64,000 nt of DNA, taken from contig CM000436.1 in the NCBI GenBank assembly GCA_000165345.1, forward strand, positions 128,001 to 192,000, read 5' to 3'. The translations under genes were made by a program, and so were the position numbers. Positions 31,188 to 63,360 of the stretch are shown here, piece by piece. The first letter of the stretch is position 1, and the number at the start of each line of letters is the position of its first letter. Below the pieces are notes generated by a model that worked only from the letters and a program-made list of their open reading frames with translations, did no database searches and had not been told where the DNA came from.

Positions 31188-31209
31188 TTCTATAAAGAAA
31201 TGAATAAAA

Positions 31210-37294: not shown

Positions 37295-40200
37295 TTATGA
37301 TCTTAAGTTTTGTGTACAATAATTAACCAAAGCTACTAAGGCAGCTACTACTTTCTCCATGTTACTGATATTTTTCTGATTAACTTGAGAGGACTTGCAT
37401 ATAAAACAATTATTACACATTCCTCCACTAATGCTACTCACTTTTTGATTTGTAACTAAACATTTTCCAGATCCTCTTACAAATTTATCTAATGATTTTA
37501 AATTGGTTAAATCTGCTTCTGAAGCTTTAAGTAAGAGTTTCATAAGTTCTAAAACTTCTCTTTTGCAACCATCTTTGATTGAGAGTGAGTATTTTTCGAT
37601 GGTTTTTATAGAGATTTTTGATACATCCAAATTTTTTGTATCTAATGTTCCATTTGAATTAAACCTTAATTGGACTTGTTGGCCACCTGACGAAGTAGAT
37701 ATTTGTGGCTTTGGCTGTGGGTATGACGGTGGTTTTTGATATGGTGGTGGTATTTGTGGCTTTGATGGTGGGTATGACGGTGGCTTTTGGTATGGTGGTG
37801 GTATTTGTGGCTTTGGCTGTGGGTATGATGGTGGTTTTTGGTATGGTGGTGGTATTTGTGGCTTCGGTTGTGGGTATGACGGTGGCTTTTGATATGGCGG
37901 TGGCATTTGTGGCTTTGATGGTGGGTATGACGGTGGTTTTTGTGCTAATGGATCATCCGAAGGCATTAATCCTAAATTTGATTTTCCGATACCATCTTCC
38001 AGCAATCTGATTAGTTCTGACTTACTATGATTTACAGAATCAAATAATTCTTGTAAATTTTTAGTATCACCGCTCAAAGAAATATATTCTAAGTATTTTC
38101 CATAAACCTCTTTATCATTTGTCAAGTCTTCAACAGCTGATCTTTTTTTTCTTTTGATTTTAGTTCCCGGCAAAATAGGTACTTTTGGTCTAACAGCAGG
38201 ATCTGGCATTCCGTTTTTTTTTGTTGATACGCCAAATGAAGATGGTATGTTTTTAATAGAAGCTGGTGTTTTTCTCTTCTTTTCCCTTGATTCTTGATGA
38301 TTCTTTGCAATGGCTTCTTCCAAAGCTTCCAAAAGAGCTTCCTTACTATCATTTCCAGTCATTTGTATGAAATCAGCCAAATTTAAAGGTGAATCAGAAG
38401 ATGAGACTGTCCCTACATATTCTAAATACTTTTCTGTAACTTTCTCATCAACTTGCATGTAGTCGTATCCGGAACCAACGCCCCAGCCTCCCTCAGCTCC
38501 TCCGACTGCACCTCCCTCAGCTCCTCCAGTTGCACCTCCCTCAGCTCCTCCGACTGCACCTCCCTCAGCTCCTCCGACTGCACCTCCCCCAGCTCCTCCG
38601 ACTGCACCTCCCTCAGCTCCTCCGACTACACCTCCCTCAGCTCCTCCAGTTGCACCTCCCCCAGCTCCTCCACTCGCTCCAGCTCCTCCACCTACTCCTG
38701 CTCCTCCACCTACTCCTGCTCCTCCACTTGCACCTCCCTCAGCTCCACCACCTGCTAAACTTTGGCTATATTCACCCAGCATACTTAATAAAGCAGCTTT
38801 GTCATAGCCTGAAGCCTTAATCAACTCTTCCAAACTTAAAGAATTTCCTTGTACAATAGACATGTATGCAGCATAAGCCATTAAAACTTCTTCATCACTT
38901 TTAAGCGTACTAAGTAAATCTATTCCAACTTCTGCTCCTTCACCACCTCCACCTCCACCTCCACTAGCTGTGCTAAATAAATTTTGGATAAGCTCACGCA
39001 TTAAATTTAATAAGTAATCCTTATCATAATTTGAAATTTTAATCAAATATTTCAAATCTAAAGGATTTTCTACAGAAGAAGAATATAAATTATAAGTTTC
39101 TATAATTGCTTTATCTGCTAAGAAAACTTCAGCTAAATCAAGAACTTGTTCAGCTTTATCTTCTCGTTTCTTTTGTTCAGAAGGATCAACTGTTGATTGA
39201 GTTTCATTTTTTAAGTTTTGGATAAATATTTTTAAATAATCAACTATGCCATATTTTTCTTCCTTAGCTAAACCCTTAATCTCTTCCAAACTTAAAGCCG
39301 GCTCATCCTTAGTTAAACTTAAATAAACTCCATATAAATTCATTACTTCTTCATCATCTTCATTTGTTCCTTCTCCTCCTCCTGTTACTGCTACACCTCC
39401 TTCTATTCCGCCTGCTGATACAGGCTCATCATGTTGATAATTTTTATCTAAACTATGCTTGAAAAATTGTTTCATTTTACTATTAAACTGATCAATTTCA
39501 TCTTTAGTCACTTCCATACTTGATATAAGATTTCCTAAAGCACCTAAAATACGATTGTACAAACTATAATTAACATATTTTAGTTTGATAAATTCCTTGC
39601 ATATATCAAATAATATTTTACTTCTACGAATTGCTGCTTTATGTACCAAAATTTCTTTCTTTAAAATTTTATCTTCTTTTAGCTTATTAATAGCTTTGTT
39701 CTTCAGTTTTTCTTTTAAGCTAATTAATTTATTCCATTGTTCTCTTAAAGTACTTTCTATTTGTGTTAGATTCAAATCATTACAAATAAATGGAAAATTT
39801 CCCAAATCAAGTAATGATGGATGTATTAACTTTTTAATTGACAATTCTTCTCCAGAAAGATCAGAAATATGTTCCCAAGACGATCTATATTTATTCTTTT
39901 CTTTACAATTTTTCAAAAGATCATTTAATCTTTCCAAAATATCTAAAAATATATTTGAAAGTAAATTTTTTTTTAATATGCTTTCTCTGTAACAATAACT
40001 TTTATTATTTGCTCTGCCAATAGAAGAATTTAATCTAACCAATAATTCCGAAATTGTTGAAATTCTTCGATGAATTAGTAATATCAACTCTGAATTACAT
40101 CCTTCTAAATATTTTACTGCATATTCCACTTCCTTTGGTAATAAAAGTGACTTTAATTCTAGAGCTAAAGATTGAATATTTCTGTTTAAATCGCATCTTA

Positions 40201-43200
40201 AAAGTGTTACTAAATTTAAATGATCTAAAATTACATTTTCTGGAGGAGCTTCAATTAATAAATTTATTGGATAATTTCCTTCATCACCATCTCCTCCGCC
40301 AGATCCACTTGGAACTGTTGGTTCGTTTGAAACTGTTGGTTTGTTTGGAATTGTTGGTTTGTTTGGAACTGTCGGTTTGTTTGGAACTGTCGGTTCGTTT
40401 GGAACTGTTGGTTCATTTGGAACTATTGGTTTGTTTGGAACTGTTGGTTTGTTTGGAAATGTCGGTTCGTTTGGAATTGTTGGTTTGCTTGGAAACGTTG
40501 GTAATACTGGTACACCTCCTGGTATTCCACTTGGTCTTCCTGATGATCCAGGCCAAGCTGGAATTGTTGGTTTCCCTGGGGCTCCTGCTCCTGCTCCTGC
40601 TCCTGCTTCTGGTCCTGGTCCTGGTCCTGCTCCTGCTTCTGGTCCTGGTCCTGGTCCTGCTCCTGCTTCTGGTCCTGGTCCTGGTCCTGCTTCTGGTCCT
40701 GGTCCTGGTCCTGCTTCTGGTCCCGGTCCTGCTCCTGCTCCTGGAGAAGATTCTTCAGAATCAAAGAATGAAGAATCATCCACTGAAGAAACATCAGTTA
40801 AAGGAGGAACAAACCCTCCAGAAAGAGTTGAGAAAGAGCAACTCTGTGTTGGAATAAATTTAGGACTCATAATATCAACTGGTACAAACAAACCATGACC
40901 ACTAGCACTTTTATAAGCACTTGGAGATTTCAATTCACTCGTAAGTTTATACAACTCAAGCAAAAGCTTCAAAAACTCAGCAGAAAATATATACTTTTGA
41001 GCTTTAAACATGCTATTACTACTCAAGAAACTTGTATGTTGCAAACCCGTATCAGCTGAACTACTTATATTATTCTTTTCTACATTCAACCCAGAAATAG
41101 TTCGTACTTCTAAAATCTTCTTTAACAACTTCTCGAGAAATTCAACCAACTTATTAATACTCGGAGTCAAAATAGAAAAGTCTTCATAAACGAATGAAGA
41201 AACTAATCCCATAGTTAATTGATATATAGACAAATCTTTCAATTCTGATCCTCTTGTAGTTGTACTTCCATCCAAAGATTGAATTGCTGTCTCCAATAAT
41301 CCTTCATATTCTAACTTTGCTTTACAATCATTTATAACTTTAAGAAGTTCTTCTAATAAACCAGGAATAAAACTTGACAAAACCGTATAATTATTTGCAT
41401 GTTTTTTATCAAGTTTTTTCCCATTTTCCAATATCACTTCTAATTGCAAATATCTATAATATAATAATGCCAATACCAAACTGTGACACTTTTGATTACC
41501 TTCCACCAACTTTGCGTCATTATTCACTAACTGAGTAAGTGTACTCTTATCAATTGATTTAACTTTTATATTAAACTTCATGGGTGGTTTAATCTCTTTT
41601 GTTTTTACCATATGCATTGTTAAAAGAGCTGTTAACAAACTTAATTGAAATTTTAATGAAAAAAATTGTAAATTATATTGCTCTCTCGATTCAGGACTTT
41701 GAATTTGTTTCAATTTGTTTAATATATATTCAAAAGTTTTTAAAAGTTGCAAAATTCTTTCTAGTAACATTAAAATCATATTAGTAGTAAGATTTTTTGC
41801 AAGATTTGTTTGATCTGATATTGAAAACCATCTAAATAATACTTTAAGTGAAGATAAATCATCTGTTTCGTAATAATCTCTTGGTAATCTTGATACAACT
41901 GGAAACAAATTTTCATCAAAATCAAGATTCAAATTTTCATTATTTACAGTAAATCTTAATTCAACACATTTTCTATATACAAATTGTAAAACTGGTTGAA
42001 TTTGGCTGTATATTGCCCTAAACCTAATAAATTTATCATTTTCCACAGTAACTCCTGTTGTAGTTGTTTGTGTTTGACCATTTAAATTTTCGAATAATTT
42101 CTTTAATGGTATTTTATTAAATTCCTTAAATTTTTCCAATTCTTTTTTAAGCATTTCAAAACTAACTGCTTGACATATTTGAGGTAAAGCCGTTGTTATA
42201 AAACTATTTCTCTTTTCATCATAAAAGCAAAGCATCTGCAAAACTTCAGTAAATAATATGGATTTATTCAATATAGCTAAAGTATTTTTAAGTATCATAA
42301 TTCTCTGATCTAAGAAATTATCAGTATTTTTTAAATAATCCAAAATTTTCTTTTCAGATTCTAATTGATTTAGAATTACTGTTCTTTTGTAAAAATGTGA
42401 CTTTAAAGTCTTTTGAATCTTTTCAATTTGGATTTGAAACGAATCATTCAAACATTTTTTAAAATCAAAATTAATTAAAGCTTCCAATACTTGTGAAATT
42501 GAAGTTAATAATTTATCTGTAAACAAAATAAGAGTTTTTGGCTGAAAATAACTAATTACCAAATTTTTAGGATCAAGTTCTCTTTATTTTTGAGTTTGAA
42601 TATATAGTTCGTGTTTATTCATAGGTAATCGACTTGCATCCTTTAATCTTTGAATTCGTCGTTTTTCTCTAGCATGAGCCTTTTGCTTACGTCTCATTTG
42701 CAAATTATCTAGATCTTGTTGTGATCTACCAGAATAAGGACTTGTAAATGGTCTATACATGACATCTTCATTAGCTACTTTTCCAGTAAGAATATCCTTT
42801 CTATATTTGCATTTATCAAGTTTAAGTTGATATTTAACAATCCTAGAAGCAAGTTCTTTCATTTGTAAGTACAACCTTTTAATGGCATTAGCTCTTTTAT
42901 CACATACTTCGCATCTATTTCCTTTTTGTTTTTTAATATTAGGATTATGGCACGTATGACTATCATAATTGCTTTTAAGAATTTTGGAATTATCTTTAAT
43001 TTTATTAAATTCAGCAGTCAATTTTTCGATTTTTGACTCCAATTGAGCTATTAAAATTCTTATTTCATTTAACGGAATATTGCTTAAAGTCCAATGTGTA
43101 ATTTCATTTTCTATTGTTAATTTAGAATTCTGGCTAAATCCTGGAAATTTTAAATAACATAACTCACTTATAATGATATTGGATTTATTATTAAGAAAGA

Positions 43201-43270
43201 TACCATTTTTCTTATAATTTGCCAAAAATACACTTAACAAAAAGATTACAAAATTTAACCACGTATTCAT
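37295..43270 (-). CDS. family member A of a giant secreted modular repeat protein (about 1990 aa as one frame). A single in-frame TAA at 42584–42586 splits it into a 227-aa N-terminal piece (42587..43270) and a 1755-aa remainder (37295..42562). It may be a pseudogene or carry a sequencing error.
   Basis: The N-terminus is a signal peptide, MNTWLNFVIFLLSVFLANY. Track ORFs 42584..43270 and 37295..42562 lie in the same frame, separated only by the TAA and 7 codons. Paralog C (60303..62249) reads straight through the equivalent position (..LYIQSQKQREMDFQTLVISYFQPK..). The modules, N to C, are:
- a basic coiled-coil N-domain containing GNRCEVCDKRANAIKRL;
- a large helical domain;
- PGPEAG and PTVPN(K/E)P repeats;
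- a conserved central domain;
- Gly-rich linkers such as GGAEGGAVGG;
- four to five helical motifs of about 50 aa (..SLSLEELIKASGYDKAALLSML..);
- 16-aa repeats PPPYQKPPSYPQPKPQI, five copies;
- a C-terminal 4-Cys domain (..GCKREVLELMKLLLKASEADLTNLKSL..GSGKCLVTNQ..GGMCNNCFICKSS..LVNYCTQNLRS). Confidence 0.6.
37700..37960. repeat. coding minisatellite of about five 48-bp units, encoding the 16-aa repeat PPPYQKPPSYPQPKPQI of member A
   Basis: The unit ggtggtatttgtggctttg(g/a)(c/t)(t/g)gtgggtatgacggtgg(t/c)ttttg(a/g)tat is visibly reiterated on the plus strand. Confidence 0.8.
38465..38760. repeat. coding minisatellite with a 30-bp unit cctccgactgcacctccctcagct (GGAEGGAVGG)n in member A
   Basis: The tandem reiteration is visible in the sequence. 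The track shows ORFs in all frames there. Confidence 0.8.
40300..40745. repeat. two adjacent coding minisatellites in member A. The 21-bp unit ggaactgttggtttgtttgga is repeated about 10 times and encodes PTVPN(K/E)P heptads. The 18/24-bp cctggtcctggtcctgctcctgcttctggt units encode PGPGPEAG.
   Basis: The tandem reiteration is visible in the sequence. Confidence 0.8.
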
Positions 43271-43952
43271 AATTAAAGATTTAATCTATGATTGCTATTA
43301 TTTTTTTCTTATCTTGTGTAAACTTAACTTGTATAATCCTTTATTTTACATACTAAATTATGTTCTGAAATATCCTATATTTAATTTAAAATAATGTAAC
43401 AAAAATTGACCAAGATCCGATTAAAATATCTTTCTTTGAATAGGAATAAACTGTTGTTGTTATTATTATTAAACCCCCGAGAAAAAAAAAAGATGAATAA
43501 ATGATTTTTTATTCCGAGCTACCCTCTTATAATATATATTGCTATATGTAAATATCTAACTAAAATTATTGAATTGATTTTTCATTTGGTGAAAAATTGA
43601 ATAACCCCAATTATAACAATAATTCTGTTACTTTAATTTAAAAAGTAGTACTGGTAACTAGAGATTAAAAAATAAACCATATATACCAGTAAAAAAAAGA
43701 AAACCCCATATAAATATAAAGCTTATTATATATATACGTAAAATTTTGATCGATATTATTCAATATTTATTTTTTAAAAAAAAAAAGAAATGAAGAAACT
43801 ATTTTGTTTTTGTACTTGTTATAATATTTAAAATATTCTCAAATAATAATCTTATATTATTTCTTCTCCCTTTAAATTTGACATGGAAAAAGGCTTTTTG
43901 TTTTTTCCTTTACTATTATTTTGAGATTCATAATTTTAGGATTACGCAATCA

Positions 43953-44188
43953 AACTTAGGCGGCACATTTCAAGATATAATATATTACATGTAATTTAAT
44001 CTTTAAATTACCCCACAATTTGAAAATAAAACTTTTAGAACTTCCCGCCACTTGGATATATTTAATTAATTTAGAAAATACTTTTAAGTCAATAAGTGAT
44101 TTTAGATTGGTTGATACTGCATATTTTTTGTTTTTTCTTTTTCTGTTTTAAAATAATAATAATAGTTATTATTATTATTATTATTTTA
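43953..44188. promoter_or_regulatory. conserved intergenic module of about 235 bp, located 690–920 bp upstream of member A. It is near-identical to 63003–63235 upstream of member C and carries two GC-box elements (cttaggcggcacatttc and cttcccgccacttgg).
   Basis: Direct comparison of the two copies gives, for example, acttttaagtcaataagtgattttagattggttgatactgcatattttttgtttttt against acttttaagtcaataagtgattttagattgattgatactgcatgttttttgtttttt. The flanking N-domain coding sequence is only about 50% identical at the protein level. Confidence 0.45.
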
Positions 44189-45255
44189 ATATTGTAAAAA
44201 ATAAAGAACATACTTTATTGAAAGGCCCAAACAAGATTTATATATATAGATATATTGGAACCACTTAATTTATTATTAATCAATGAGACAAAATCAGATA
44301 AGACAAGATCCAGATCAAAATATTATCTTTCATTCTTTCTTTGTTTTTTTTTAAAACTAGAAAAAAAAATTTATTATTAAATATCTAAAAGTAATAATAT
44401 ATTTATTATTGTCTTGAATTGCGTTCAATTAATATTATTTTATTATTTGTATTATTCACATATATATATTATATTCAAAATATGCATTTTAATGCAAAGA
44501 GAATATATAATATGCAATTTGTCATAATTAGTGGTAATAGTAAATAAATGGTAATAATAAATAAAATATTTAAGTTTACTTAATATTAAATTTTTATCTA
44601 TTTCTATTACTTAAAGTCTATATTTCATAAAAGTAAAGAAAACAAAATTAAAGAAAAAAAAAAAAAAAAAAGAGAAGAGAATCTCGAGTTTTTCCTCCTC
44701 TTTCATTTCTTTCTCTTTTTTTCCTTCATAATTTTATTTTTCGTTTTGTTAAGAAAAAAAAGTAAACACTTTACTATTTCTTAAGCAAATTAATATCAAA
44801 ATAAATCTATTTTCTTCTCATTATTATTATATATTACTGAGATAAGAATATTGAAATTAAATAGTATAAATCCATTTTTATAAATAATTCAAGTATAATT
44901 TTTTTTTTTTTAATAAATAGATTTTTGGCCTGATTCCAAGATTTCAAAATAAACATGTACAATTTATCGTATACAATATTAATGCATGCACGTTATAGAA
45001 GGAAAAAAATGGAAACAGCCCGCCTTTCCCACATGCTTTTGAAAAAAAAAAAAAATCATACTGTAAAAATAAAGAAATTCCATTCTCTCTTTTAATATTT
45101 GAATTTCATTGAAATATTAAAGTTACTTGATTAGTTTAACGAATTGAACAATTTTGACTTTTTTCTTTTTTTAAACTTTTTTTCATTCTAAAATTACTCT
45201 TCTCTTTAAAAAAAAAAATAAATATATAGATCGTAATCAAATAGAATTTAGTATA

Positions 45256-48200
45256 TTATCTTGAGTTTTTTTTACAATATTCAACCAAAACTTCCAATGC
45301 AGCTACTATTTTCTCCATATTTCTGACATTTCTATTATTAACTCTAGAGGAGTTACATACAAAACAATTATTGCATGTTCCTCCACTTCCTGACCTTTGA
45401 TCTGTATTTAAACATCTTGCTGATCCTTTTAAAAATCGTTCCAATGACTTTAAATTATTTAAATCTGCTATTGAAACTTTGAGTAAATGTAATAAAAGAT
45501 TTAAAGTAGCATTTGAACAACCACTTCTAACTGAATTTGAATGTTTTTCAATGGTTTTTGTGGAAATACTTGATGTATCTAAATTAGTTTTATCTAATGT
45601 TCCATTAGGATTAAACTTTAATTGAACTTTGTGCGAACCAATGATTGAAGTCGGTATTTGTGATGGTTGTGATGGTTGTGACGGTTGTGGATATGCTGGT
45701 GGTTGAGGATATGCCGGTGGTTGTGATGGTTGTGGGTACCTTGGTGGCTGCGGATATGCCGGTGGTTGTGATGGTTGTGGGTACCTTGGTGGTTGCGGAT
45801 ATGGAGGCGGCTTTGATGGCTGTGGATATGCTGGTGGTTGAGGATATGCTGGTGGCTGTGATGGTTTTGAAGTTGATCGTGGTGGACGTGGCTTCGGCTG
45901 TGATGGACCAAATGAAGATAATATATCATTGATAGAGGAAGGCGCTGGTTTTCTTTTTGGTATTTCTGTTCTTGAAGCTTGATTATTCGTTTCAATAGCT
46001 TGTTGTAAAATTTGTAAAAGAGTTTCTTTATTTTGATTTCCTGGCATATCTATGAAATCAATCAAATCTAAAGGAGTATTTGGAGGCACTACTGATCTTA
46101 CATAATCTAAATAGTATTTCAATACAACTTCATCATTTAATAAGAGCCTGCTTTCATCATCCAAAGCTTCTCCTCCTTCTGCTCCTCCACTTGCTCCTGC
46201 TCCTCCACTTGCTCCTGCTCCCCCACCTGCTCCTGCTCCTCCACCTGCTCCTGCTCCTCCACCTGCTCCGCCTCCATAAACATTCCCTGTAGAATTTGTA
46301 TTATATTCACTTAAAATATCCAATAAAGTATTTTTATCGTAACCTGCAACTTCAATTAATTCTTTCAAACTCAAGGATTGTTTTACCATAGAAACATACA
46401 AAGCATAAGCTTCTAATACTTGTTCATCTGACATAAGAGCATTAATTAAACTTGATGCACTTGTTCCTTCTTCACCTTCATTATCATTTCTTCCTGGTGT
46501 TTCTCCATTTGTGTTATTATTTTGTGAAGTTTTGATAAATTCAATCATTAAAGATAATAAGTAACTTTTATCGTAACTTGAAAGTTCGATCAAATCTTCT
46601 AAATTTGAAGGATTCTCAACAACGGAAGAATATAAAGCATAAGTTTCCAAAACTTGTTGGTCATTTATTATAGATGAAACGATGTTATTAGTTGATTGAA
46701 CCCCATTTTTTAAGCTTTGAACAATATTTTTTAAATATTCAGATAAACTTTGCCCTTCTGCTGAAGCTAATTCCTTGATACTATTCAAACTTAAAGGCGC
46801 TTCACCAGTAGCTAAACTCAAATAAAATGCATATAAGTTTTGTATTTCTTCATCTTCATCAAGATTTTCTTCCTCCCCTGCTCCTCCACTTCCGCCTCCA
46901 CCTCCACTTCCGCCTCCACTTCCACTTCCGCCTCCACTTCCACCTCCACCAGCTCCTCCACTTCCACCTCCGCCTGCTCCTCCACCTCCGCCTGCTCCTC
47001 CACCTCCGCCTGCTCCTCCACCTCCACTTCCTCCTCCCGGCGTATATTCATCCAGATCTAACTTAAATAATCGCCTTATTTTATCATTAAGCTTATTAAC
47101 TTCAACGTTAGTTACTTTCATACTTGAATGAATATCTTTTAAAGCAGTTGAAACTTTATTAAATAAACTATTATTAACATATTGTAATTGCACAAATTCT
47201 TTACAAGCTTCAAGTAGTAATTTATTTCTTCTAACTGCTGCTTTATATATCAAAGTTTGTGTTTTTAAACTTTTAATATCTTTACTTTTGCTTACAATAC
47301 CCTTACTTTTAAGATTTTCTTTTAGATTTAATGTTTTATCCCATAATTTTTTTAAATAAATTTCTGCTTTTGGTAAATTTGAATCAACACAAGTAAATGG
47401 AAATCTTGCTAGTTTATTAAATGGTGGATATATTAAACTTTTAATTGAAGATTCTTCTCCCAAAAGACTAGTAATATGTTTCCAAGGCAATTTATATTTA
47501 TTCATTTCTTTACATTTATCTAAAATAGCATTTAATTTTCCCAAAATATCTAAAAATATATTTGAAAGTAAATTCCTCTTTAGTAAAGTTTCTTTGTAAC
47601 AAATACTTTTAGTATGTTTTATACTTGCACCATCAGAAGAACTTAATCTATTTATTAATTCCATTACTGTTGAAATTCTTTGATTTATAAGCAATAATAA
47701 TCCTAAATCACATCCTTGTAAATATCTTATTGCATATTCAACTTTTTTTGGTAATAACATTGATTTTAATTTCTCTGTCAAAGTTTGAATACTTCCTTCA
47801 AAATCACATCTCAAAATTACTGATAAATCCAAATTGTTCAAAATTTCAGATTCTGCATCAACTCCTTGAATTGTTACATCTATTGGATAATTTTGTGGAT
47901 CCTCTTCATTCTCATCATTTCCTATTCCAGACCCACCCGGTCTTTCTGGCCAACCTCCTCCACCACCACCTGCTCCACCGCTTGACCCTGGTAGTCCACT
48001 CCCTCCTGATTGACTTGGCATTTCTGGTTGAGTTGGTATTCCTGGTTGAGTTGGTATTCCTGGTTGAGTACCTGGAAATGCTGGAGCTCCTGGTCGAGTT
48101 GGCTTTCCACCAAATCCTTGAGCCCCTGGTAATACTGGCACTCCCCCAGGCACAGCAATAGGCTTTGATGCTTCTTGCCCACCTGGTCCGCTTGGAACTC

Positions 48201-48714
48201 CTGGTTTTGTTGTTCCTCCTGGCATTGCTGGTCCACTTGTTCCTCCTGGCATTCCTGGCCAACTTGGAACTACTGGTTTTGCTGGTCCACTTGGTCCTCC
48301 TGGTGTTGCTGGTCCTCCTGGCATTGCTGGTCCACTTGGTCCTCCTGGTATTCCTGGTCCTCCTGGTGTTCCTGGTCCTCCTGGTATTCCTGGTCCTCCC
48401 AGAACTCCTAAAATCAAATCTCCCGACGAACTAAATATTTCTGTAAAATCATTTGAATCTGAAAATAAATCAAAACCATATAATTGTTGTTCTGGTAATA
48501 TACCATTCTCCAATGGAAATGGAGGAAAAACAAATTCCATCAATTTTGGGAATAAATTCCAATTCATTGTCAAAAAATGTGGTTCTCCTTTATTTTCTAA
48601 TGAATTATATAATGTTAAAATTCCAAATCTAAAGCAATATTTTATTAATCCATGATAAACCTTACTTAAAGTTGATATTAAACTCATTTCATTCATACTT
48701 TGTTTATCTTTCAA
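45256..48714 (-). CDS. family member B of the same giant secreted modular repeat protein family; the 5' end is incomplete and continues into low-quality sequence and the gap
   Basis: The track ORF of 1152 aa stops at TAA 45256–45258. It shares domain order and many blocks with member A: the central domain ([32 protein letters not shown]..), the helical motifs, and the C-terminal 4-Cys domain (..[60 protein letters not shown]). Its repeat units differ from A: [12 protein letters not shown] runs, [11 protein letters not shown] 11-mers, and an N-terminal Gly-X-Pro tract. Upstream of 48714 the frame continues with A-like sequence (..NLRSRETSNDIFGG.. compared with ..ILEVRTISGLNVEKNNISS..) but is broken by n calls. 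The true start is therefore not in readable sequence. Confidence 0.55.
45650..45870. repeat. coding minisatellite with a 33-bp unit (ggttgtgatggttgtgggtaccttggtggctgcggatatgccggt type), encoding [11 protein letters not shown]-type 11-mers in member B
   Basis: The tandem reiteration is visible in the sequence. Confidence 0.75.
46170..47045. repeat. Gly/Ala/Ser-rich coding microsatellite blocks in member B (46170–46275 gctcctgctcctccacctgct units; 46880–47040 ccgcctccacttccacctcc units), separated by unique helical-motif coding sequence
   Basis: This is read directly. The units encode GGAGGGG and [12 protein letters not shown] runs. Confidence 0.7.
47930..48415. repeat. cctggt-based imperfect repeats encoding a Gly-X-Pro and (Ser/Ala)-X-Pro triplet tract ([42 protein letters not shown]...) near the readable N-terminus of member B
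   Basis: The tract consists of reiterated cctggtcctcctggt(a/g)ttcctggt units, with Pro at every third residue over about 45 codons. Confidence 0.7.
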
Positions 48715-49980
48715 ATTTTTTATTTCCTCTTTTCTTTCTTGAATTTTNTCCANTNNTGTACTGTAAATTCTTCAAAAATCTTCTTCTGNACATATATTTT
48801 GGNNCTATCTTCTCTTTTATTAAATAATTTTNTAAAACATTATCAATATGTATTATGTATTATTACTACTACTACCACCAAAAATATCATTACTTGTTTC
48901 TCTTGATCTTAAATTTAATTCATTCAACACTTCATTATTAATATTCAAATTTGAACTTTCTTTTGTTATNATTTTNTGAAATTGTTGTACGGAAAATCTC
49001 CTCTTTTAAAGGGTCATATGCTGATATTTGTCCNAAACCNTTATAATATTCAATTNTTCTCACACAACCNAATATTCCTGATGCANGAATAATCTANAGC
49101 TAAACTAANTCCAATCAATNNCTGATATTAATGTATAATAATTACAATTATTACNACNCTCTTNNATATNCCATCATGNAANGTGACTTGNNNTTCTCAT
49201 TCATACTTGAAACTGAATTTACATNCATTNATTCATNAAATNTACTTTCAAATNCTTGNCAATGNTGNNNCTATATGTTAATGNCTTAATAATTGATAAT
49301 TANNATAATNACNAGNTAATAAATGTCCAAATAAATTAATACCTGATGTNAAATCATAAANCATNTTATTTGATNTNTGTGATNCTAGAGATAAACCTTG
49401 TAATACAAATCTTGAAAAATNTTGTANTGAANGTAANATACTTTTGTGTCCAATATATATTTCATTAAATATTGTAATAGNCNTTTNCACATCTTTTAAT
49501 ANTATCTNGCTAANNATAATNATAAAGCTTCAATTATTANTAAAGTTCTNTACTGCTTCTTTTTTGNNATAGAATATTCACTTGAAACAANTTCTGGTGA
49601 TTNGAANTCCATAAAAGTATCCAATGNCTTACGTTTTTTTATTCTATCCCTTATTNATGNNAAAGANTNTATATGAGATTTTAATANNGATATATTAATA
49701 CTTGTACACATCGGGTAAACCTGCTAAATTTATTGCAAGATGATTTATTAGTGTATCTAANAATNTGGACAGATATGTATTCATTGTGTTGAATAATCAT
49801 ATTAATTCATCTGATANCAAATTATTNGNCCNTAAANGATCTTTCATGAAAGCCTTATCATAATCTGTTCTACGTTATTTTCAAACTGGACCATTTGNAC
49901 TAAATCATGNCCANTATTAAAGATTAGTAANNATTATCATCATCGNAGNCATTTTGAANAACCCANCCCCANCTGNCCCT

Positions 49981-52900
49981 NNANNNNNNNNNNNNNNNNN
50001 NNNNNNNNNNNNNNNNNNNNNNNNNNNNNNNNNNNNNNNNNNNNNNNNNNNNNNNNNNNNNNNNNNNNNNNNNNNNNNNNNNNNNNNNNNNNNNNNNNNN
50101 NNNNNNNNNNNNNNNNNNNNNNNNNNNNNNNNNNNNNNNNNNNNNNNNNNNNNNNNNNNNNNNNNNNNNNNNNNNNNNNNNNNNNNNNNNNNNNNNNNNN
50201 NNNNNNNNNNNNNNNNNNNNNNNNNNNNNNNNNNNNNNNNNNNNNNNNNNNNNNNNNNNNNNNNNNNNNNNNNNNNNNNNNNNNNNNNNNNNNNNNNNNN
50301 NNNNNNNNNNNNNNNNNNNNNNNNNNNNNNNNNNNNNNNNNNNNNNNNNNNNNNNNNNNNNNNNNNNNNNNNNNNNNNNNNNNNNNNNNNNNNNNNNNNN
50401 NNNNNNNNNNNNNNNNNNNNNNNNNNNNNNNNNNNNNNNNNNNNNNNNNNNNNNNNNNNNNNNNNNNNNNNNNNNNNNNNNNNNNNNNNNNNNNNNNNNN
50501 NNNNNNNNNNNNNNNNNNNNNNNNNNNNNNNNNNNNNNNNNNNNNNNNNNNNNNNNNNNNNNNNNNNNNNNNNNNNNNNNNNNNNNNNNNNNNNNNNNNN
50601 NNNNNNNNNNNNNNNNNNNNNNNNNNNNNNNNNNNNNNNNNNNNNNNNNNNNNNNNNNNNNNNNNNNNNNNNNNNNNNNNNNNNNNNNNNNNNNNNNNNN
50701 NNNNNNNNNNNNNNNNNNNNNNNNNNNNNNNNNNNNNNNNNNNNNNNNNNNNNNNNNNNNNNNNNNNNNNNNNNNNNNNNNNNNNNNNNNNNNNNNNNNN
50801 NNNNNNNNNNNNNNNNNNNNNNNNNNNNNNNNNNNNNNNNNNNNNNNNNNNNNNNNNNNNNNNNNNNNNNNNNNNNNNNNNNNNNNNNNNNNNNNNNNNN
50901 NNNNNNNNNNNNNNNNNNNNNNNNNNNNNNNNNNNNNNNNNNNNNNNNNNNNNNNNNNNNNNNNNNNNNNNNNNNNNNNNNNNNNNNNNNNNNNNNNNNN
51001 NNNNNNNNNNNNNNNNNNNNNNNNNNNNNNNNNNNNNNNNNNNNNNNNNNNNNNNNNNNNNNNNNNNNNNNNNNNNNNNNNNNNNNNNNNNNNNNNNNNN
51101 NNNNNNNNNNNNNNNNNNNNNNNNNNNNNNNNNNNNNNNNNNNNNNNNNNNNNNNNNNNNNNNNNNNNNNNNNNNNNNNNNNNNNNNNNNNNNNNNNNNN
51201 NNNNNNNNNNNNNNNNNNNNNNNNNNNNNNNNNNNNNNNNNNNNNNNNNNNNNNNNNNNNNNNNNNNNNNNNNNNNNNNNNNNNNNNNNNNNNNNNNNNN
51301 NNNNNNNNNNNNNNNNNNNNNNNNNNNNNNNNNNNNNNNNNNNNNNNNNNNNNNNNNNNNNNNNNNNNNNNNNNNNNNNNNNNNNNNNNNNNNNNNNNNN
51401 NNNNNNNNNNNNNNNNNNNNNNNNNNNNNNNNNNNNNNNNNNNNNNNNNNNNNNNNNNNNNNNNNNNNNNNNNNNNNNNNNNNNNNNNNNNNNNNNNNNN
51501 NNNNNNNNNNNNNNNNNNNNNNNNNNNNNNNNNNNNNNNNNNNNNNNNNNNNNNNNNNNNNNNNNNNNNNNNNNNNNNNNNNNNNNNNNNNNNNNNNNNN
51601 NNNNNNNNNNNNNNNNNNNNNNNNNNNNNNNNNNNNNNNNNNNNNNNNNNNNNNNNNNNNNNNNNNNNNNNNNNNNNNNNNNNNNNNNNNNNNNNNNNNN
51701 NNNNNNNNNNNNNNNNNNNNNNNNNNNNNNNNNNNNNNNNNNNNNNNNNNNNNNNNNNNNNNNNNNNNNNNNNNNNNNNNNNNNNNNNNNNNNNNNNNNN
51801 NNNNNNNNNNNNNNNNNNNNNNNNNNNNNNNNNNNNNNNNNNNNNNNNNNNNNNNNNNNNNNNNNNNNNNNNNNNNNNNNNNNNNNNNNNNNNNNNNNNN
51901 NNNNNNNNNNNNNNNNNNNNNNNNNNNNNNNNNNNNNNNNNNNNNNNNNNNNNNNNNNNNNNNNNNNNNNNNNNNNNNNNNNNNNNNNNNNNNNNNNNNN
52001 NNNNNNNNNNNNNNNNNNNNNNNNNNNNNNNNNNNNNNNNNNNNNNNNNNNNNNNNNNNNNNNNNNNNNNNNNNNNNNNNNNNNNNNNNNNNNNNNNNNN
52101 NNNNNNNNNNNNNNNNNNNNNNNNNNNNNNNNNNNNNNNNNNNNNNNNNNNNNNNNNNNNNNNNNNNNNNNNNNNNNNNNNNNNNNNNNNNNNNNNNNNN
52201 NNNNNNNNNNNNNNNNNNNNNNNNNNNNNNNNNNNNNNNNNNNNNNNNNNNNNNNNNNNNNNNNNNNNNNNNNNNNNNNNNNNNNNNNNNNNNNNNNNNN
52301 NNNNNNNNNNNNNNNNNNNNNNNNNNNNNNNNNNNNNNNNNNNNNNNNNNNNNNNNNNNNNNNNNNNNNNNNNNNNNNNNNNNNNNNNNNNNNNNNNNNN
52401 NNNNNNNNNNNNNNNNNNNNNNNNNNNNNNNNNNNNNNNNNNNNNNNNNNNNNNNNNNNNNNNNNNNNNNNNNNNNNNNNNNNNNNNNNNNNNNNNNNNN
52501 NNNNNNNNNNNNNNNNNNNNNNNNNNNNNNNNNNNNNNNNNNNNNNNNNNNNNNNNNNNNNNNNNNNNNNNNNNNNNNNNNNNNNNNNNNNNNNNNNNNN
52601 NNNNNNNNNNNNNNNNNNNNNNNNNNNNNNNNNNNNNNNNNNNNNNNNNNNNNNNNNNNNNNNNNNNNNNNNNNNNNNNNNNNNNNNNNNNNNNNNNNNN
52701 NNNNNNNNNNNNNNNNNNNNNNNNNNNNNNNNNNNNNNNNNNNNNNNNNNNNNNNNNNNNNNNNNNNNNNNNNNNNNNNNNNNNNNNNNNNNNNNNNNNN
52801 NNNNNNNNNNNNNNNNNNNNNNNNNNNNNNNNNNNNNNNNNNNNNNNNNNNNNNNNNNNNNNNNNNNNNNNNNNNNNNNNNNNNNNNNNNNNNNNNNNNN

Positions 52901-55900
52901 NNNNNNNNNNNNNNNNNNNNNNNNNNNNNNNNNNNNNNNNNNNNNNNNNNNNNNNNNNNNNNNNNNNNNNNNNNNNNNNNNNNNNNNNNNNNNNNNNNNN
53001 NNNNNNNNNNNNNNNNNNNNNNNNNNNNNNNNNNNNNNNNNNNNNNNNNNNNNNNNNNNNNNNNNNNNNNNNNNNNNNNNNNNNNNNNNNNNNNNNNNNN
53101 NNNNNNNNNNNNNNNNNNNNNNNNNNNNNNNNNNNNNNNNNNNNNNNNNNNNNNNNNNNNNNNNNNNNNNNNNNNNNNNNNNNNNNNNNNNNNNNNNNNN
53201 NNNNNNNNNNNNNNNNNNNNNNNNNNNNNNNNNNNNNNNNNNNNNNNNNNNNNNNNNNNNNNNNNNNNNNNNNNNNNNNNNNNNNNNNNNNNNNNNNNNN
53301 NNNNNNNNNNNNNNNNNNNNNNNNNNNNNNNNNNNNNNNNNNNNNNNNNNNNNNNNNNNNNNNNNNNNNNNNNNNNNNNNNNNNNNNNNNNNNNNNNNNN
53401 NNNNNNNNNNNNNNNNNNNNNNNNNNNNNNNNNNNNNNNNNNNNNNNNNNNNNNNNNNNNNNNNNNNNNNNNNNNNNNNNNNNNNNNNNNNNNNNNNNNN
53501 NNNNNNNNNNNNNNNNNNNNNNNNNNNNNNNNNNNNNNNNNNNNNNNNNNNNNNNNNNNNNNNNNNNNNNNNNNNNNNNNNNNNNNNNNNNNNNNNNNNN
53601 NNNNNNNNNNNNNNNNNNNNNNNNNNNNNNNNNNNNNNNNNNNNNNNNNNNNNNNNNNNNNNNNNNNNNNNNNNNNNNNNNNNNNNNNNNNNNNNNNNNN
53701 NNNNNNNNNNNNNNNNNNNNNNNNNNNNNNNNNNNNNNNNNNNNNNNNNNNNNNNNNNNNNNNNNNNNNNNNNNNNNNNNNNNNNNNNNNNNNNNNNNNN
53801 NNNNNNNNNNNNNNNNNNNNNNNNNNNNNNNNNNNNNNNNNNNNNNNNNNNNNNNNNNNNNNNNNNNNNNNNNNNNNNNNNNNNNNNNNNNNNNNNNNNN
53901 NNNNNNNNNNNNNNNNNNNNNNNNNNNNNNNNNNNNNNNNNNNNNNNNNNNNNNNNNNNNNNNNNNNNNNNNNNNNNNNNNNNNNNNNNNNNNNNNNNNN
54001 NNNNNNNNNNNNNNNNNNNNNNNNNNNNNNNNNNNNNNNNNNNNNNNNNNNNNNNNNNNNNNNNNNNNNNNNNNNNNNNNNNNNNNNNNNNNNNNNNNNN
54101 NNNNNNNNNNNNNNNNNNNNNNNNNNNNNNNNNNNNNNNNNNNNNNNNNNNNNNNNNNNNNNNNNNNNNNNNNNNNNNNNNNNNNNNNNNNNNNNNNNNN
54201 NNNNNNNNNNNNNNNNNNNNNNNNNNNNNNNNNNNNNNNNNNNNNNNNNNNNNNNNNNNNNNNNNNNNNNNNNNNNNNNNNNNNNNNNNNNNNNNNNNNN
54301 NNNNNNNNNNNNNNNNNNNNNNNNNNNNNNNNNNNNNNNNNNNNNNNNNNNNNNNNNNNNNNNNNNNNNNNNNNNNNNNNNNNNNNNNNNNNNNNNNNNN
54401 NNNNNNNNNNNNNNNNNNNNNNNNNNNNNNNNNNNNNNNNNNNNNNNNNNNNNNNNNNNNNNNNNNNNNNNNNNNNNNNNNNNNNNNNNNNNNNNNNNNN
54501 NNNNNNNNNNNNNNNNNNNNNNNNNNNNNNNNNNNNNNNNNNNNNNNNNNNNNNNNNNNNNNNNNNNNNNNNNNNNNNNNNNNNNNNNNNNNNNNNNNNN
54601 NNNNNNNNNNNNNNNNNNNNNNNNNNNNNNNNNNNNNNNNNNNNNNNNNNNNNNNNNNNNNNNNNNNNNNNNNNNNNNNNNNNNNNNNNNNNNNNNNNNN
54701 NNNNNNNNNNNNNNNNNNNNNNNNNNNNNNNNNNNNNNNNNNNNNNNNNNNNNNNNNNNNNNNNNNNNNNNNNNNNNNNNNNNNNNNNNNNNNNNNNNNN
54801 NNNNNNNNNNNNNNNNNNNNNNNNNNNNNNNNNNNNNNNNNNNNNNNNNNNNNNNNNNNNNNNNNNNNNNNNNNNNNNNNNNNNNNNNNNNNNNNNNNNN
54901 NNNNNNNNNNNNNNNNNNNNNNNNNNNNNNNNNNNNNNNNNNNNNNNNNNNNNNNNNNNNNNNNNNNNNNNNNNNNNNNNNNNNNNNNNNNNNNNNNNNN
55001 NNNNNNNNNNNNNNNNNNNNNNNNNNNNNNNNNNNNNNNNNNNNNNNNNNNNNNNNNNNNNNNNNNNNNNNNNNNNNNNNNNNNNNNNNNNNNNNNNNNN
55101 NNNNNNNNNNNNNNNNNNNNNNNNNNNNNNNNNNNNNNNNNNNNNNNNNNNNNNNNNNNNNNNNNNNNNNNNNNNNNNNNNNNNNNNNNNNNNNNNNNNN
55201 NNNNNNNNNNNNNNNNNNNNNNNNNNNNNNNNNNNNNNNNNNNNNNNNNNNNNNNNNNNNNNNNNNNNNNNNNNNNNNNNNNNNNNNNNNNNNNNNNNNN
55301 NNNNNNNNNNNNNNNNNNNNNNNNNNNNNNNNNNNNNNNNNNNNNNNNNNNNNNNNNNNNNNNNNNNNNNNNNNNNNNNNNNNNNNNNNNNNNNNNNNNN
55401 NNNNNNNNNNNNNNNNNNNNNNNNNNNNNNNNNNNNNNNNNNNNNNNNNNNNNNNNNNNNNNNNNNNNNNNNNNNNNNNNNNNNNNNNNNNNNNNNNNNN
55501 NNNNNNNNNNNNNNNNNNNNNNNNNNNNNNNNNNNNNNNNNNNNNNNNNNNNNNNNNNNNNNNNNNNNNNNNNNNNNNNNNNNNNNNNNNNNNNNNNNNN
55601 NNNNNNNNNNNNNNNNNNNNNNNNNNNNNNNNNNNNNNNNNNNNNNNNNNNNNNNNNNNNNNNNNNNNNNNNNNNNNNNNNNNNNNNNNNNNNNNNNNNN
55701 NNNNNNNNNNNNNNNNNNNNNNNNNNNNNNNNNNNNNNNNNNNNNNNNNNNNNNNNNNNNNNNNNNNNNNNNNNNNNNNNNNNNNNNNNNNNNNNNNNNN
55801 NNNNNNNNNNNNNNNNNNNNNNNNNNNNNNNNNNNNNNNNNNNNNNNNNNNNNNNNNNNNNNNNNNNNNNNNNNNNNNNNNNNNNNNNNNNNNNNNNNNN

Positions 55901-59983: not shown

Positions 59984-60302
59984 ATAAACTCGACCTAACA
60001 ACATATACCCCNAAGGTCCGTGAAAGCCATAACCTTAATGTAGGTACCCTTTCCAAGGTAACCTGGAATACTTTGGAATCATAATTTAATTAGTAATTCC
60101 CCCAAAATAAAACTATTTGTTAATATCTGGAGTTAACTTAACTAAATCATCTTGATAAAATGAAGAAATTAATCCCATTGGTTAATTGATATAAAGATAA
60201 ATCTTTTAAATCTGATTTATTACTTTTATCATCCAATAATTTTATTAAATCTAATATTGGATCCAATTTTAATCTTGATTCACAATCTGTTCATATCTCT
60301 GT

Positions 60303-63002: not shown

Positions 63003-63235
63003 AAACTTGAGCGCCATATTTCTAGATATATTACATGTTAATTAAATCTTTAAATTACCCCACAAATAAGAAATTAAATTTCAAGGAACTTCCCGCCACT
63101 TTGACATATTTAATTAATTTATAAAATACTTTTAAGTCAATAAGTGATTTTAGATTGATTGATACTGCATGTTTTTTGTTTTTTTTTTCTGTTTTAAAAT
63201 AATAATAATAATAATAATAGTTATTATTATTATTG
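63003..63235. promoter_or_regulatory. second copy of the conserved intergenic module, upstream of member C and immediately 3' of member D; GC-boxes cttgagcgccatatttc and cttcccgccactttg
   Basis: See the 43953–44188 feature. A second, shorter conserved block (aaaccccatataaatataaag...aaattttgat.gatatt) lies at 62729–62795, matching 43700–43765. Confidence 0.45.
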
Positions 63236-63360
63236 TTAATGTTATAAATGTTAGTTTTGTGTTGTTATATATTTTCTATTATCTCATTTCTCATTTTCAA
63301 CTTTATTTCTTATTTTTCTTCATTTCCCATTTCTCTTTGTTTTCCTATTTCAGCTCAAAT

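What the first reader, a model, noticed from the sequence alone, without database searches (positions are those of the whole stretch)
43665..44188. Upstream noncoding modules duplicated with the gene and conserved far better than the adjacent coding sequence
Two blocks upstream of member A are near-identical to blocks upstream of member C: 43953–44188 against 63003–63235, and 43700–43765 against 62729–62795. Identity is about 90% over roughly 235 bp and 65 bp. The N-terminal coding domains next to them are only about 50% identical at the protein level, and the rest of the intergenic DNA is unalignable. The long block contains two GC-box elements (GGCGGCACATTTC or GCGCCATATTTC, and CTTCCCGCCAC) in an otherwise about 85% A+T context, and ends in an (ATAATA)n tract. 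Either strong purifying selection on shared cis-regulatory elements that co-regulate the family, or a small noncoding RNA, or recent gene conversion limited to noncoding DNA.
Basis: seen in the sequence. Interest (0 to 1): 0.7.

Follow-up and report, generated by a model that had tools for sequence, protein, structure and literature searches.

The report
Shared promoter block of duplicated Cryptosporidium genes
Two paralogous secreted-protein genes on Cryptosporidium parvum chromosome 8 share an upstream block that is a promoter module built from motif types already known in this parasite (E2F site, G-box), and its near-identical core is the repeat already reported to flank the deletion of one paralog in C. 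hominis, so it is real but largely ordinary.

Summary
The window is C. parvum chromosome 8, in an older assembly with a 10-kb N gap. All family genes lie on the minus strand.

The upstream regions of gene A (cgd8_660_670) and gene C (cgd8_690) align over about 540 bp. A core at 44042-44163 is 94-96% identical. The adjacent coding DNA is 73.6% identical (dS 0.51, 55-58% amino-acid identity).

The half of the block nearer the gene carries GTGGCGGGAAG (E2F site), TTGTGGGGTAATT (G-box) and a GGCGC site. The G-box 12-mer recurs once, in the same place and orientation, in C. ubiquitum, C. canis and C. felis. The spacers between the motifs have diverged, which is the usual pattern of a conserved promoter. 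A and C/B share one published expression cluster. D lacks the block and sits in another cluster.

The far 85 bp (44079-44163) is 95% identical between the paralogs but at chance level against C. ubiquitum. Gene conversion or parvum-specific constraint remains open there.

The 19,048-bp copy spacing equals the published C. hominis deletion, which is flanked by "~100 bp almost identical" sequences (Guo 2015).

No support was found for a small RNA. "Members B and C" are one 3228-aa gene.

The parts
43953..44188 (-). Long conserved block upstream of gene A, 683-918 bp upstream of the ATG whose first base is at 43270. Paralogous copy at 63003-63235.
   Evidence: 85% of alignment columns identical, against a chance level of 52%.
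44152..44205 (.). (AAT)n/(ATT)n palindromic microsatellite. It marks the far edge of A/C upstream homology, so it is the duplication boundary. Copy at about 63196-63240.
   Evidence: Inverted repeats I1-I4. The alignment breaks down beyond it.
44079..44163 (-). Far near-identical tract. Gene sense: AAAACAGAAAAAGAAAAAACAAAAAATATGCAGTATCAACCAATCTAAAATCACTTATTGACTTAAAAGTATTTT. It contains CCAAT (44106-44110) and TGCAG/TGCAT (44117-44122). It is either a candidate gene-conversion tract or a parvum-lineage-specific element.
   Evidence: A/C identity 81/85 (95%). A/C. ubiquitum identity 54%, which is chance level.
44058..44074 (-). AT-rich conserved flank CTAAATTAATTAAATAT next to the E2F site. In C. 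ubiquitum it reads CTAAATTAATTCAATA.
44041..44051 (-). Copy at 63089-63099.
   Evidence: Core GGCGGGAA is identical in A, C and C. ubiquitum. It matches the published motif TTTGGCGGGAAV.
43998..44018 (-). G-box TTGTGGGGTAATTTAAAGATT. Copy at 63045-63065.
   Evidence: The 12-mer TGTGGGG[AT]AATT occurs exactly once per locus, in this place and orientation, in C. parvum (two copies), C. ubiquitum, C. canis and C. felis. Expected occurrences are 7e-5 to 1.7e-3 per upstream region. It matches the published motif DTGTGGGG.
43959..43968 (-). Second, E2F-like GC box. It is ATGTGCCGCC in A (degenerate) and ATATGGCGCTC in C (63009-63019). It corresponds to TTGGCGCTT in C. ubiquitum, TTGGCGCC in C. canis and GGGCGCCA in C. 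felis, 31-50 nt downstream of the G-box.
   Evidence: Published motif DTTGSCGCCH.
43698..43765 (-). Short conserved block with core TTTATATTTATATGGGGTTTT (43700-43720) and ATCAAAATTT (43741-43750). Copy at 62727-62795. It could be a second G-box or the core promoter/TSS region.
   Evidence: 78% of columns identical overall, core 21/21. TATATGGGGGTTTT is also present at -171 in C. ubiquitum.
63003..63235 (-). Long conserved block upstream of gene C/B, 750-982 bp upstream of the ATG at about 62250-62253. Its far edge is only about 120 bp from the stop codon of gene D.
37295..43270 (-). Gene A (cgd8_660 plus cgd8_670). It has a signal peptide and an in-frame TAA at codon 229 (42584-42586).
   Evidence: It is annotated as 228 aa plus a second product in both gap-free assemblies.
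45256..62253 (-). Gene C/B (cgd8_690 is the 5' part, cgd8_680 the 3' part). It is one 3228-codon ORF, interrupted in the window only by the N gap at 49984-59983.
   Evidence: Uninterrupted ORF at L002 10001-19684. The true gap is about 2.7 kb.
63358..64000 (-). 3' end of gene D (cgd8_700, mucin-like). Its own upstream region lacks the block.

Best explanation
The blocks are the 5' regulatory region of an old tandem gene duplicate on C. parvum chromosome 8. The two genes are cgd8_660_670 (A) and cgd8_680_690 (C/B).

The duplicated segment ran from an (AAT)n microsatellite, through about 1 kb of upstream DNA, into the coding region. Most of that upstream DNA has since drifted to the neutral level of about 63-75% identity.

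What has been kept, reading towards the gene, is a compact module:
- an AT-rich flank;
- an E2F/DP site (GGCGGGAA);
- 24-25 nt further on, a G-box (TGTGGGGTAATT; a G-box is bound in vitro by ApiAP2 cgd8_810);
- 46-50 nt further on, a second E2F-like GGCGC site;
- about 260 bp further on, a TATATGGGGTTTT element.

These sites most likely recruit E2F/DP and a G-box-binding AP2 factor. That would give both paralogs the same stage-specific transcription.

Shown: the sequence conservation, the motif identity, the cross-species footprint and the co-clustered expression. Inferred: factor binding, promoter activity and the position of the transcription start.

On top of this sits a contiguous 85-120 bp tract of 95% identity, 44079-44163 extending through the E2F site. 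It goes beyond what the cross-species footprint explains. It is most simply read as a short gene-conversion or homogenised tract, or as a parvum-lineage-specific element. This tract is the direct repeat at which non-allelic recombination removed C/B in C. hominis.
For: 1. The window matches two gap-free C. parvum chromosome 8 assemblies at 99.4-100%, so both copies are real.
2. Homology is collinear from the block into the coding region, with copy spacing of 18,983-19,050 bp.
3. Neutral baseline: pS 0.37 and dS 0.51, homogeneous along the coding region (window pS 0.16-0.64, sd 0.12 against a binomial sd of 0.10). The core has only 7 differences in 122 columns, P between 6e-16 and 2e-5.
4. Footprint pattern, A/C identity with A or C vs C. 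ubiquitum in brackets: E2F plus flank 92% (64-69%); spacer 65% (26-43%); G-box 87% (73-80%); spacer 61% (39-56%).
5. The 12-mer TGTGGGG[AT]AATT was defined from C. parvum and C. ubiquitum. It then turned up exactly once in each 20-kb C. canis and C. felis locus, in the upstream region, in the sense orientation, followed by GGCGCC 31-47 nt later. Expected occurrences are 1.7e-3 and 8e-5.
6. The motifs equal the published C. parvum promoter motifs TTTGGCGGGAAV, DTTGSCGCCH and DTGTGGGG. The G-box is bound by AP2 cgd8_810 on protein-binding arrays. E2F motifs dominate ATAC-seq peaks at the 5' ends of transcripts. E2F and G-box motifs also sit upstream of other genes in this window.
7. cgd8_670, cgd8_680 and cgd8_660 all fall in expression cluster 8 of 200. 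cgd8_700 (D, no block) is in cluster 112.
8. Differences between two C. parvum strains fall outside the blocks.
9. The copy spacing within 44020-44135 is 19,048 bp. That is exactly the size of the published C. hominis deletion, which is flanked by ~100-bp almost identical sequences.
Against: - The module lies 690-850 bp from the ATG. That is far for this compact genome, and no transcription start or chromatin data could be consulted for this locus.
- The far 85 bp has no cross-species support (54% identity to C. ubiquitum). Long-term selection therefore does not explain the most identical part.
- A profile of the whole module finds no significant match in C. canis or C. felis (nhmmer E >= 2). 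Only short motifs are shared there.
- In copy A the second GC box is degenerate (GCCGCC), and gene A carries an in-frame stop, so A may be decaying.
- The expression-cluster evidence comes from RT-PCR on the older split gene models, and cgd8_690 itself was not found in the stored (truncated) table.
Confidence: 0.7

Rival explanations
1. Pure gene conversion or ectopic recombination. On this view the block has no function. A short tract of noncoding DNA was recently copied from one paralog's upstream region to the other, resetting divergence to about 5% while everything around it stayed at about 30-40%.
For: - The far tract 44079-44163 is uniformly 95% identical, with no pattern of conserved islands, and is at chance level against C. 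ubiquitum.
- The same tract has recombined ectopically in nature, producing the 19,048-bp deletion in C. hominis.
- Within-species paralogs are closer than cross-species copies. dS is 0.51 for A-C against 0.67-0.92 for either versus C. ubiquitum. The two C. ubiquitum C-terminal copies are 55-73% identical to each other but only 35-48% identical to the C. parvum copies. Both facts fit concerted evolution at this locus.
Against: - The half nearer the gene shows conserved islands with diverged spacers (65% and 61%) even between A and C. A single conversion tract would not produce that.
- The islands are exactly the motifs conserved in three other species.
- No coding window shows a comparable drop in synonymous divergence.
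- The tract would have to coincide by chance with known promoter motifs.
Confidence: 0.2
2. The block encodes a small noncoding RNA, or is the start of an unannotated transcript, that was duplicated along with the gene.
For: - There is high contiguous conservation without coding potential.
- A T-rich run follows the tract on the plus strand.
- C. parvum has many unannotated noncoding RNAs.
Against: - No Rfam family matches, even at E <= 10, inside the block. The only weak hits lie in an A-run/T-run at 44627-44749.
- No tRNA or tmRNA is found.
- Folding energies on both strands of both copies are no better than shuffles (z from -1.3 to +2.1).
- The two GC boxes would pair in copy A, but the pairing is broken without compensation in copy C.
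- No lncRNA is listed next to these genes in the held supplements of the lncRNA survey.
Confidence: 0.04
3. The block is the 3' UTR or polyadenylation region of the gene lying upstream (D for copy C, C/B for copy A), not a 5' element of A and C.
For: In copy C the block begins only about 120 bp beyond the stop codon of D.
Against: - In copy A the block is about 1,070 bp beyond the stop of C/B. In C. ubiquitum it is about 1,020 bp beyond the stop of the preceding gene.
- The C-termini of D and C/B are not homologous.
- Homology continues from the block towards and into the 5' coding region of A and C.
- In C. felis the motifs lie between the family gene and the myosin gene.
Confidence: 0.03
4. 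Assembly artefact. On this view the second copy results from mis-assembly around the 10-kb gap, as Isaza et al. 2015 suspected.
For: The window has a 10,000-N gap, and a published caution exists.
Against: Two independent gap-free chromosome-level assemblies contain both copies at 99.4-100% identity to the window. The copies also differ by about 26% in coding DNA, so they are not a collapsed or duplicated read set.
Confidence: 0.01

Closest known systems
C. parvum E2F-like upstream motifs (TTTGGCGGGAAV and DTTGSCGCCH; Oberstaller et al. 2013, PMC3734150; ATAC-seq enrichment in bioRxiv 10.1101/2025.01.17.633476)
   Same: The core GGCGGGAA is identical. A second GGCGC(C/T) site is present. Both are upstream of protein-coding genes, and similar sites sit upstream of other genes in this window.
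   Different: The site is 690-850 bp from the ATG rather than in a short intergenic region. The TTT prefix of the consensus is absent (AGT in C. parvum, AAT in C. ubiquitum). Binding has not been tested.
G-box (DTGTGGGG / G.GGGG), bound in vitro by ApiAP2 cgd8_810
   Same: Exact match TTGTGGGG, conserved in four species.
   Different: The conserved unit here is longer (TGTGGGG[AT]AATT). It is paired at near-fixed spacing with E2F-type sites. That pairing has not been described, as far as the papers read here show.
Low-copy direct repeats that mediate non-allelic homologous recombination; specifically the '~100 bp almost identical' flanks of the 19,048-bp C. hominis deletion (Guo et al. 2015, PMC4407392)
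   Same: This is the same sequence. The copy spacing of 19,048 bp within window 44020-44135 equals the reported deletion size, and the two copies are in direct orientation and bracket cgd8_680/690.
   Different: Guo et al. treated the repeat only as a recombination substrate. They did not note its promoter motifs, its cross-species conservation, or that cgd8_680 and cgd8_690 are one gene.
Conserved upstream (ups) promoter classes of Plasmodium falciparum var genes (from general knowledge, not tested here)
   Same: In both cases a fast-evolving secreted or surface gene family has 5' flanking regions more conserved between paralogs than the coding sequence. Both selection on regulation and ectopic recombination are implicated.
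   Different: Here there are two copies rather than about 60. There is no evidence of mutually exclusive expression. The motifs are E2F and G-box types.

Membership tests
E2F/DP-site promoter element of Cryptosporidium | Sequence match to the E2F core (GGCGGGAA / GGCGCC) | tested here: met
   GTGGCGGGAAG at 44041-44051 and 63089-63099. GGCGC at 63009-63019. The corresponding site in copy A is degenerate (GCCGCC).
E2F/DP-site promoter element of Cryptosporidium | Located in the 5' flank of a gene and conserved in orthologous flanks | tested here: met
   The sites lie at -779 (A), -844 (C) and -418 (C. ubiquitum). A GGCGCC site lies at -471 in C. canis and -246 in C. felis.
E2F/DP-site promoter element of Cryptosporidium | Occupied by E2F/DP, or lying in open chromatin at a transcript 5' end | not testable with these tools
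G-box / ApiAP2 (cgd8_810-type) site | Match to DTGTGGGG | tested here: met
   TTGTGGGG at 43998-44018 and 63045-63065. The 12-mer is unique per locus in four species.
G-box / ApiAP2 (cgd8_810-type) site | Bound by the AP2 domain at this locus | not testable with these tools
   Only published protein-binding-array specificity is available.
Shared cis-regulation of paralogs | The genes that share the element are co-expressed, and a neighbour without it is not | tested here: met
   cgd8_670, cgd8_680 and cgd8_660 are in cluster 8. cgd8_700 is in cluster 112 (supplement of PMC3734150). cgd8_690 was not found in the truncated table.
Structured small noncoding RNA | Match to a known RNA family, tRNA or tmRNA | tested here: not met
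   No hit inside the block at E <= 10. No gathering-score hit in the whole window. ARAGORN found nothing.
Structured small noncoding RNA | Folding energy better than shuffled sequence, or compensatory changes | tested here: not met
   z-scores run from -1.3 to +2.1. The GGCGG/CCGCC pairing in copy A is broken without compensation in copy C.
Gene-conversion tract between paralogs | A contiguous tract with divergence far below flanking neutral sites and no long-term cross-species conservation | tested here: met
   This holds for 44079-44163 only: 95% A/C identity against pS 0.37, and 54% identity to C. ubiquitum.
Gene-conversion tract between paralogs | Phylogenetic incongruence: the tract groups by species while the flanks group by orthologue | not testable with these tools
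   C. hominis, C. meleagridis and C. tyzzeri loci could not be retrieved. The Logan contigs stop at about window position 37780.
Direct repeat mediating non-allelic recombination (NAHR) deletion | Direct orientation, bracketing the deleted segment, with deletion length equal to repeat spacing | tested here: met
   The spacing of 19,048 bp within 44020-44135 equals the published deletion size.

The most novel reading that the evidence does not exclude
The far 85-120 bp tract would be a recombination-prone element kept near-identical by recurrent gene conversion. It would repeatedly drive gain and loss of copies of this fast-evolving secreted-protein family between closely related Cryptosporidium species. 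C. hominis lost cgd8_680_690 and chipmunk genotype I lost cgd8_660_670 (C. meleagridis also keeps only one copy). If so, a promoter-embedded repeat would control copy number of a candidate host-interaction gene. Alternatively, the tract could be a parvum-lineage-specific enhancer or the start of an unannotated transcript.
Probability: 0.25. Interest if true: 0.5.

Novelty: new member of a known kind. Interest (0 to 1): 0.3.

Why it matters
- It gives a concrete, compact and cross-species-conserved promoter module (E2F site, then a G-box 24-25 nt on, then a GGCGC site 46-50 nt on) for a pair of large, fast-evolving secreted proteins. The parasite's transcriptional control is poorly understood but is now genetically tractable, so the module can be tested directly with reporters.
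- It links that module to a known species difference: the loss of cgd8_680_690 in C. hominis by recombination between the two copies.
- It corrects the local gene model. cgd8_680 and cgd8_690 are one 3228-aa gene, and the 10-kb gap is really about 2.7 kb.
- None of this overturns current understanding. The motifs are the commonest ones in C. parvum promoters, and the near-identical repeat was already reported.

Tried and rejected
- Rfam search (lenient on the intergenic region, gathering threshold on the whole window) and ARAGORN found nothing in the block. The weak hits at 44627-44749 are an A-run/T-run.
- RNA folding of both strands of both copies gave no signal.
- A small-ORF scan found only short ORFs not conserved between the copies.
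- Pfam scans of A and of the window's B ORF (the 3' part of C/B) matched no family.
- A protein homology search with the 228-aa N-terminus of A returned nothing. The first search returned only C itself and C. ubiquitum.
I used the last homology search on RPL23A as a synteny anchor instead, which yielded C. ubiquitum, C. canis and C. felis loci.
- Logan contigs, including a 96%-identical C. hominis-like one, stop in the 3' repeats of gene A and never reach the block.
- An exact look-up of the 228-aa ORF found only the same two assemblies.
- A metagenome scan for the E2F...G-box pattern gave four chance hits in unrelated contigs of 51-56% GC.
- An nhmmer profile of the module gave no significant hit in C. 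canis, C. felis or the region upstream of D. Conservation there is at motif level only.
- A sliding-window synonymous-divergence scan found no conversion tract in the coding region.
- The supplements of the lncRNA paper do not mention these genes.

Full report
**Where we are.** The window is Cryptosporidium parvum chromosome 8. The region upstream of A matches GCA_015245375.1 (CP044415.1) at 100% and GCA_035232765.1 (CP141125.1) at 99.4%. The window is the older assembly, with a run of 10,000 N at 49984-59983. Neighbouring genes are RPN1, RFC1, Ctf4 and RPL23A. All family genes are on the minus strand, so 'upstream' means higher window coordinates.
- Gene A runs from 43270 down to 37295 (cgd8_670 plus cgd8_660). 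It has a signal peptide and an in-frame TAA at codon 229.
- 'Member C' starts at about 62253.
- 'Member B' ends at 45256.
- D ends at about 63358.

**First correction.** In the gap-free assembly there is one uninterrupted ORF of 3228 codons, at L002 10001-19684. It begins with C's N-terminus and ends with B's C-terminus. B and C are therefore one gene (cgd8_680_690). The gap is really about 2.7 kb. There is no region 'upstream of B'. The array consists of D, then C/B, then A. C/B is collinear with the single 2857-aa gene of C. canis and the single 2958-aa gene of C. felis, each of which lies between RPL23A and myosin. A has the N- and C-terminal parts only. D has the middle part with its own signal peptide.

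**The observation.** The homology between the two units runs collinearly from the coding region into the upstream DNA. Coding region 41138-43277 aligns with 60104-62253 at 72.5%. Upstream region 43660-44202 aligns with 62693-63249 at 74.7%. Measured identities:
- the short block: 78% (81.5% ungapped);
- the core 44042-44163: 94-96%;
- shuffled sequence of the same composition: 51.8 +/- 1.9%.

Only two copies exist in the window. For the coding comparison, amino-acid identity is 55-58%, nt identity 73.6%, pS 0.37, dS 0.51 and dN 0.29. Synonymous divergence is homogeneous along the gene, with no window below 0.16. The core's 7 differences in 122 columns are therefore far below neutral, with P between 6e-16 and 2e-5 depending on the baseline.
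- most of the intergenic DNA between the blocks is alignable at about the neutral level;
- the best coding 100-column window reaches 90, against 95 upstream;
- the short block is less conserved than stated.

**What is in the block.** Reading in gene sense, the order is:
- (TAA)n/(ATT)n microsatellite;
- an 85-bp tract;
- CTAAATTAATTAAATAT;
- GTGGCGGGAAG;
- a 24-25-nt spacer;
- TTGTGGGGTAATTTAAAGATT;
- a spacer;
- ATGGCGCTC in C, or GTGCCGCC in A;
- about 260 bp further on, TTTATATTTATATGGGGTTTT.

GGCGGGAA and GGCGCC are the E2F-like motifs TTTGGCGGGAAV and DTTGSCGCCH. TGTGGGG is the G-box motif DTGTGGGG. These are the most over-represented upstream motifs in C. parvum, and the G-box is bound in vitro by ApiAP2 cgd8_810 (Oberstaller et al. 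2013). E2F motifs also dominate ATAC-seq peaks at transcript 5' ends. In this window the same motifs sit upstream of other genes, for example at 3360/3370, 14248, 18522/18758 and 21453.

**Cross-species test.** I retrieved the orthologous loci of C. ubiquitum, C. canis and C. felis, using the family protein and RPL23A as anchors.
- *C. ubiquitum.* BLAST finds window 43983-44078 upstream of cubi_03292 (74.5% identity, E = 4e-12). The three-way alignment shows the classical footprint. Between A and C, the E2F site plus flank is 92% identical and the G-box 87%. Against C. ubiquitum those figures are 64-69% and 73-80%. The spacers fall to 61-65% even between the paralogs, and to 26-56% across species.
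- *C. canis and C. felis.* The 12-mer TGTGGGG[AT]AATT was defined from C. parvum and C. ubiquitum. It then occurs exactly once in each 20-kb locus of C. canis and C. felis, in the upstream region of the family gene, in the sense orientation. GGCGCC follows 31-47 nt later. Chance expectation is 1.7e-3 and 8e-5. Whole-module homology is not detectable in those two species, so conservation there is at motif level only.
- *D.* The region upstream of D in C. parvum lacks the module.

**Expression.** In the published 200-cluster RT-PCR time course, cgd8_670 (membership 0.999), cgd8_680 (0.975) and cgd8_660 (0.607) are all in cluster 8. cgd8_700 (D) is in cluster 112. This is what shared cis-regulation of A and C/B, but not D, predicts. 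cgd8_690 itself was not in the stored, truncated table.

**The part that the footprint does not explain.** The far tract 44079-44163 is 95% identical between A and C with no island structure. Against C. ubiquitum it is at chance level (54%). Guo et al. 2015 reported that C. hominis lacks cgd8_680 and cgd8_690 through a 19,048-bp deletion whose two ends have '~100 bp ... almost identical sequences'. The copy spacing in the window is exactly 19,048 bp only within about 44020-44135. It is 19,047 at the G-box, 19,050 at the second GC box, 19,028 at the short block and 18,983 at the ATG. The published repeat is therefore this block, and it has recombined ectopically. Other papers report that C. meleagridis and chipmunk genotype I also keep only one paralog, and chipmunk genotype I has lost the other one. 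In addition, paralogs within a species are closer than cross-species copies. Together these facts make a short gene-conversion tract a reasonable account of the extra, contiguous identity. A parvum-lineage-specific functional element is the alternative. I could not retrieve C. hominis, C. meleagridis or C. tyzzeri sequence to decide between them.

**Rivals.**
- *Small RNA.* There is no Rfam, tRNA or tmRNA match. Folding is no better than shuffles. The potential GGCGG/CCGCC pairing in A is broken without compensation in C. No lncRNA is listed nearby.
- *3' UTR of the upstream gene.* The distance from the preceding stop codon is about 120 bp in one copy and about 1,070 bp in the other, and the preceding C-termini are not homologous.
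- *Assembly artefact.* This is excluded by two gap-free assemblies.

**Verdict.** The finding is real and statistically solid. It is best explained as an inherited promoter module made of known Cryptosporidium motif types, with a short homogenised tract on top. That tract doubles as the recombination substrate behind a known difference between C. parvum and C. hominis. It is a new, well-defined instance of a known kind, and its near-identical core was already described in the literature.

Confidence in the promoter reading is about 0.7. Interest is 0.3.

Noticed in passing
window 45256-62253 (minus strand); L002 10001-19684: 'Members B and C' (cgd8_680 and cgd8_690) are one uninterrupted 3228-codon ORF in the gap-free assemblies. 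Current NCBI annotations still split it into a 647-aa 'partial' product and a 1146-aa (or 1002-aa) product. The 10,000-N gap stands for only about 2.7 kb.
   Followed up: yes
window 42584-42586 (minus strand): Gene A has an in-frame TAA at codon 229, present in both gap-free assemblies. The frame stays open for a further 1755 codons, which explains the cgd8_670/cgd8_660 split. It could be a recent pseudogenisation, stop-codon readthrough, or two separate products. dN/dS for A versus C is about 0.56.
   Followed up: partly
window 44921-44960, and 44555-44654: The two C. parvum assemblies differ by a cluster of 6 SNPs within 40 bp, in the far, A-specific part of the intergenic region. The cluster is next to a TGCATGCA palindrome (44983-44990) and a GGCGGGC box (about 45020). 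No differences fall inside the conserved blocks.
   Followed up: no
window 44627-44749: An A-run/T-run inverted repeat (aaag(a)18gagaagag...ctcttt) gives sub-threshold Rfam hits, for example Plasmodium RNase P at 32.6 bits against a gathering score of 100. This looks like low-complexity noise.
   Followed up: partly
L003 64-2928 and L004 11576-14632 (C. ubiquitum): C. ubiquitum also has two C-terminal family copies. They are more similar to each other (55-73% aa) than to either C. parvum copy (35-48%). This indicates either concerted evolution or independent duplication. The published view that only C. parvum has two copies may therefore be incomplete.
   Followed up: partly
L005 10956-19526, L007 11105-19978; L002 3156-8885: C. 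canis and C. felis have a single gene of about 2900 aa between RPL23A and myosin. C. parvum D (cgd8_700, 'mucin') corresponds to the middle third of that gene, with a new signal peptide.
   Followed up: partly
window 35552-36399 (plus strand): The RPL23A gene has a 16-nt first exon and a 383-nt intron (35568-35950). Prodigal-style gene calls in Logan assemblies report only the 105-aa second-exon ORF.
   Followed up: no
window 3360/3370, 14248-14255, 18522 and 18758-18771, 21453-21460: Palindromic E2F sites (TGGCGCCA) and G-boxes lie 150-400 bp upstream of several housekeeping genes in the window (a TSP1-domain protein, RPN1, a hydrolase). This shows that the E2F plus G-box pairing is a common local promoter architecture.
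   Followed up: no
L009 (Logan SRR29134127), aligned to window 31166-37735: A contig 96.2% identical to the window, probably C. hominis or a close relative, ends inside the 3' repeats of gene A. Short-read assemblies consistently break there.
   Followed up: no
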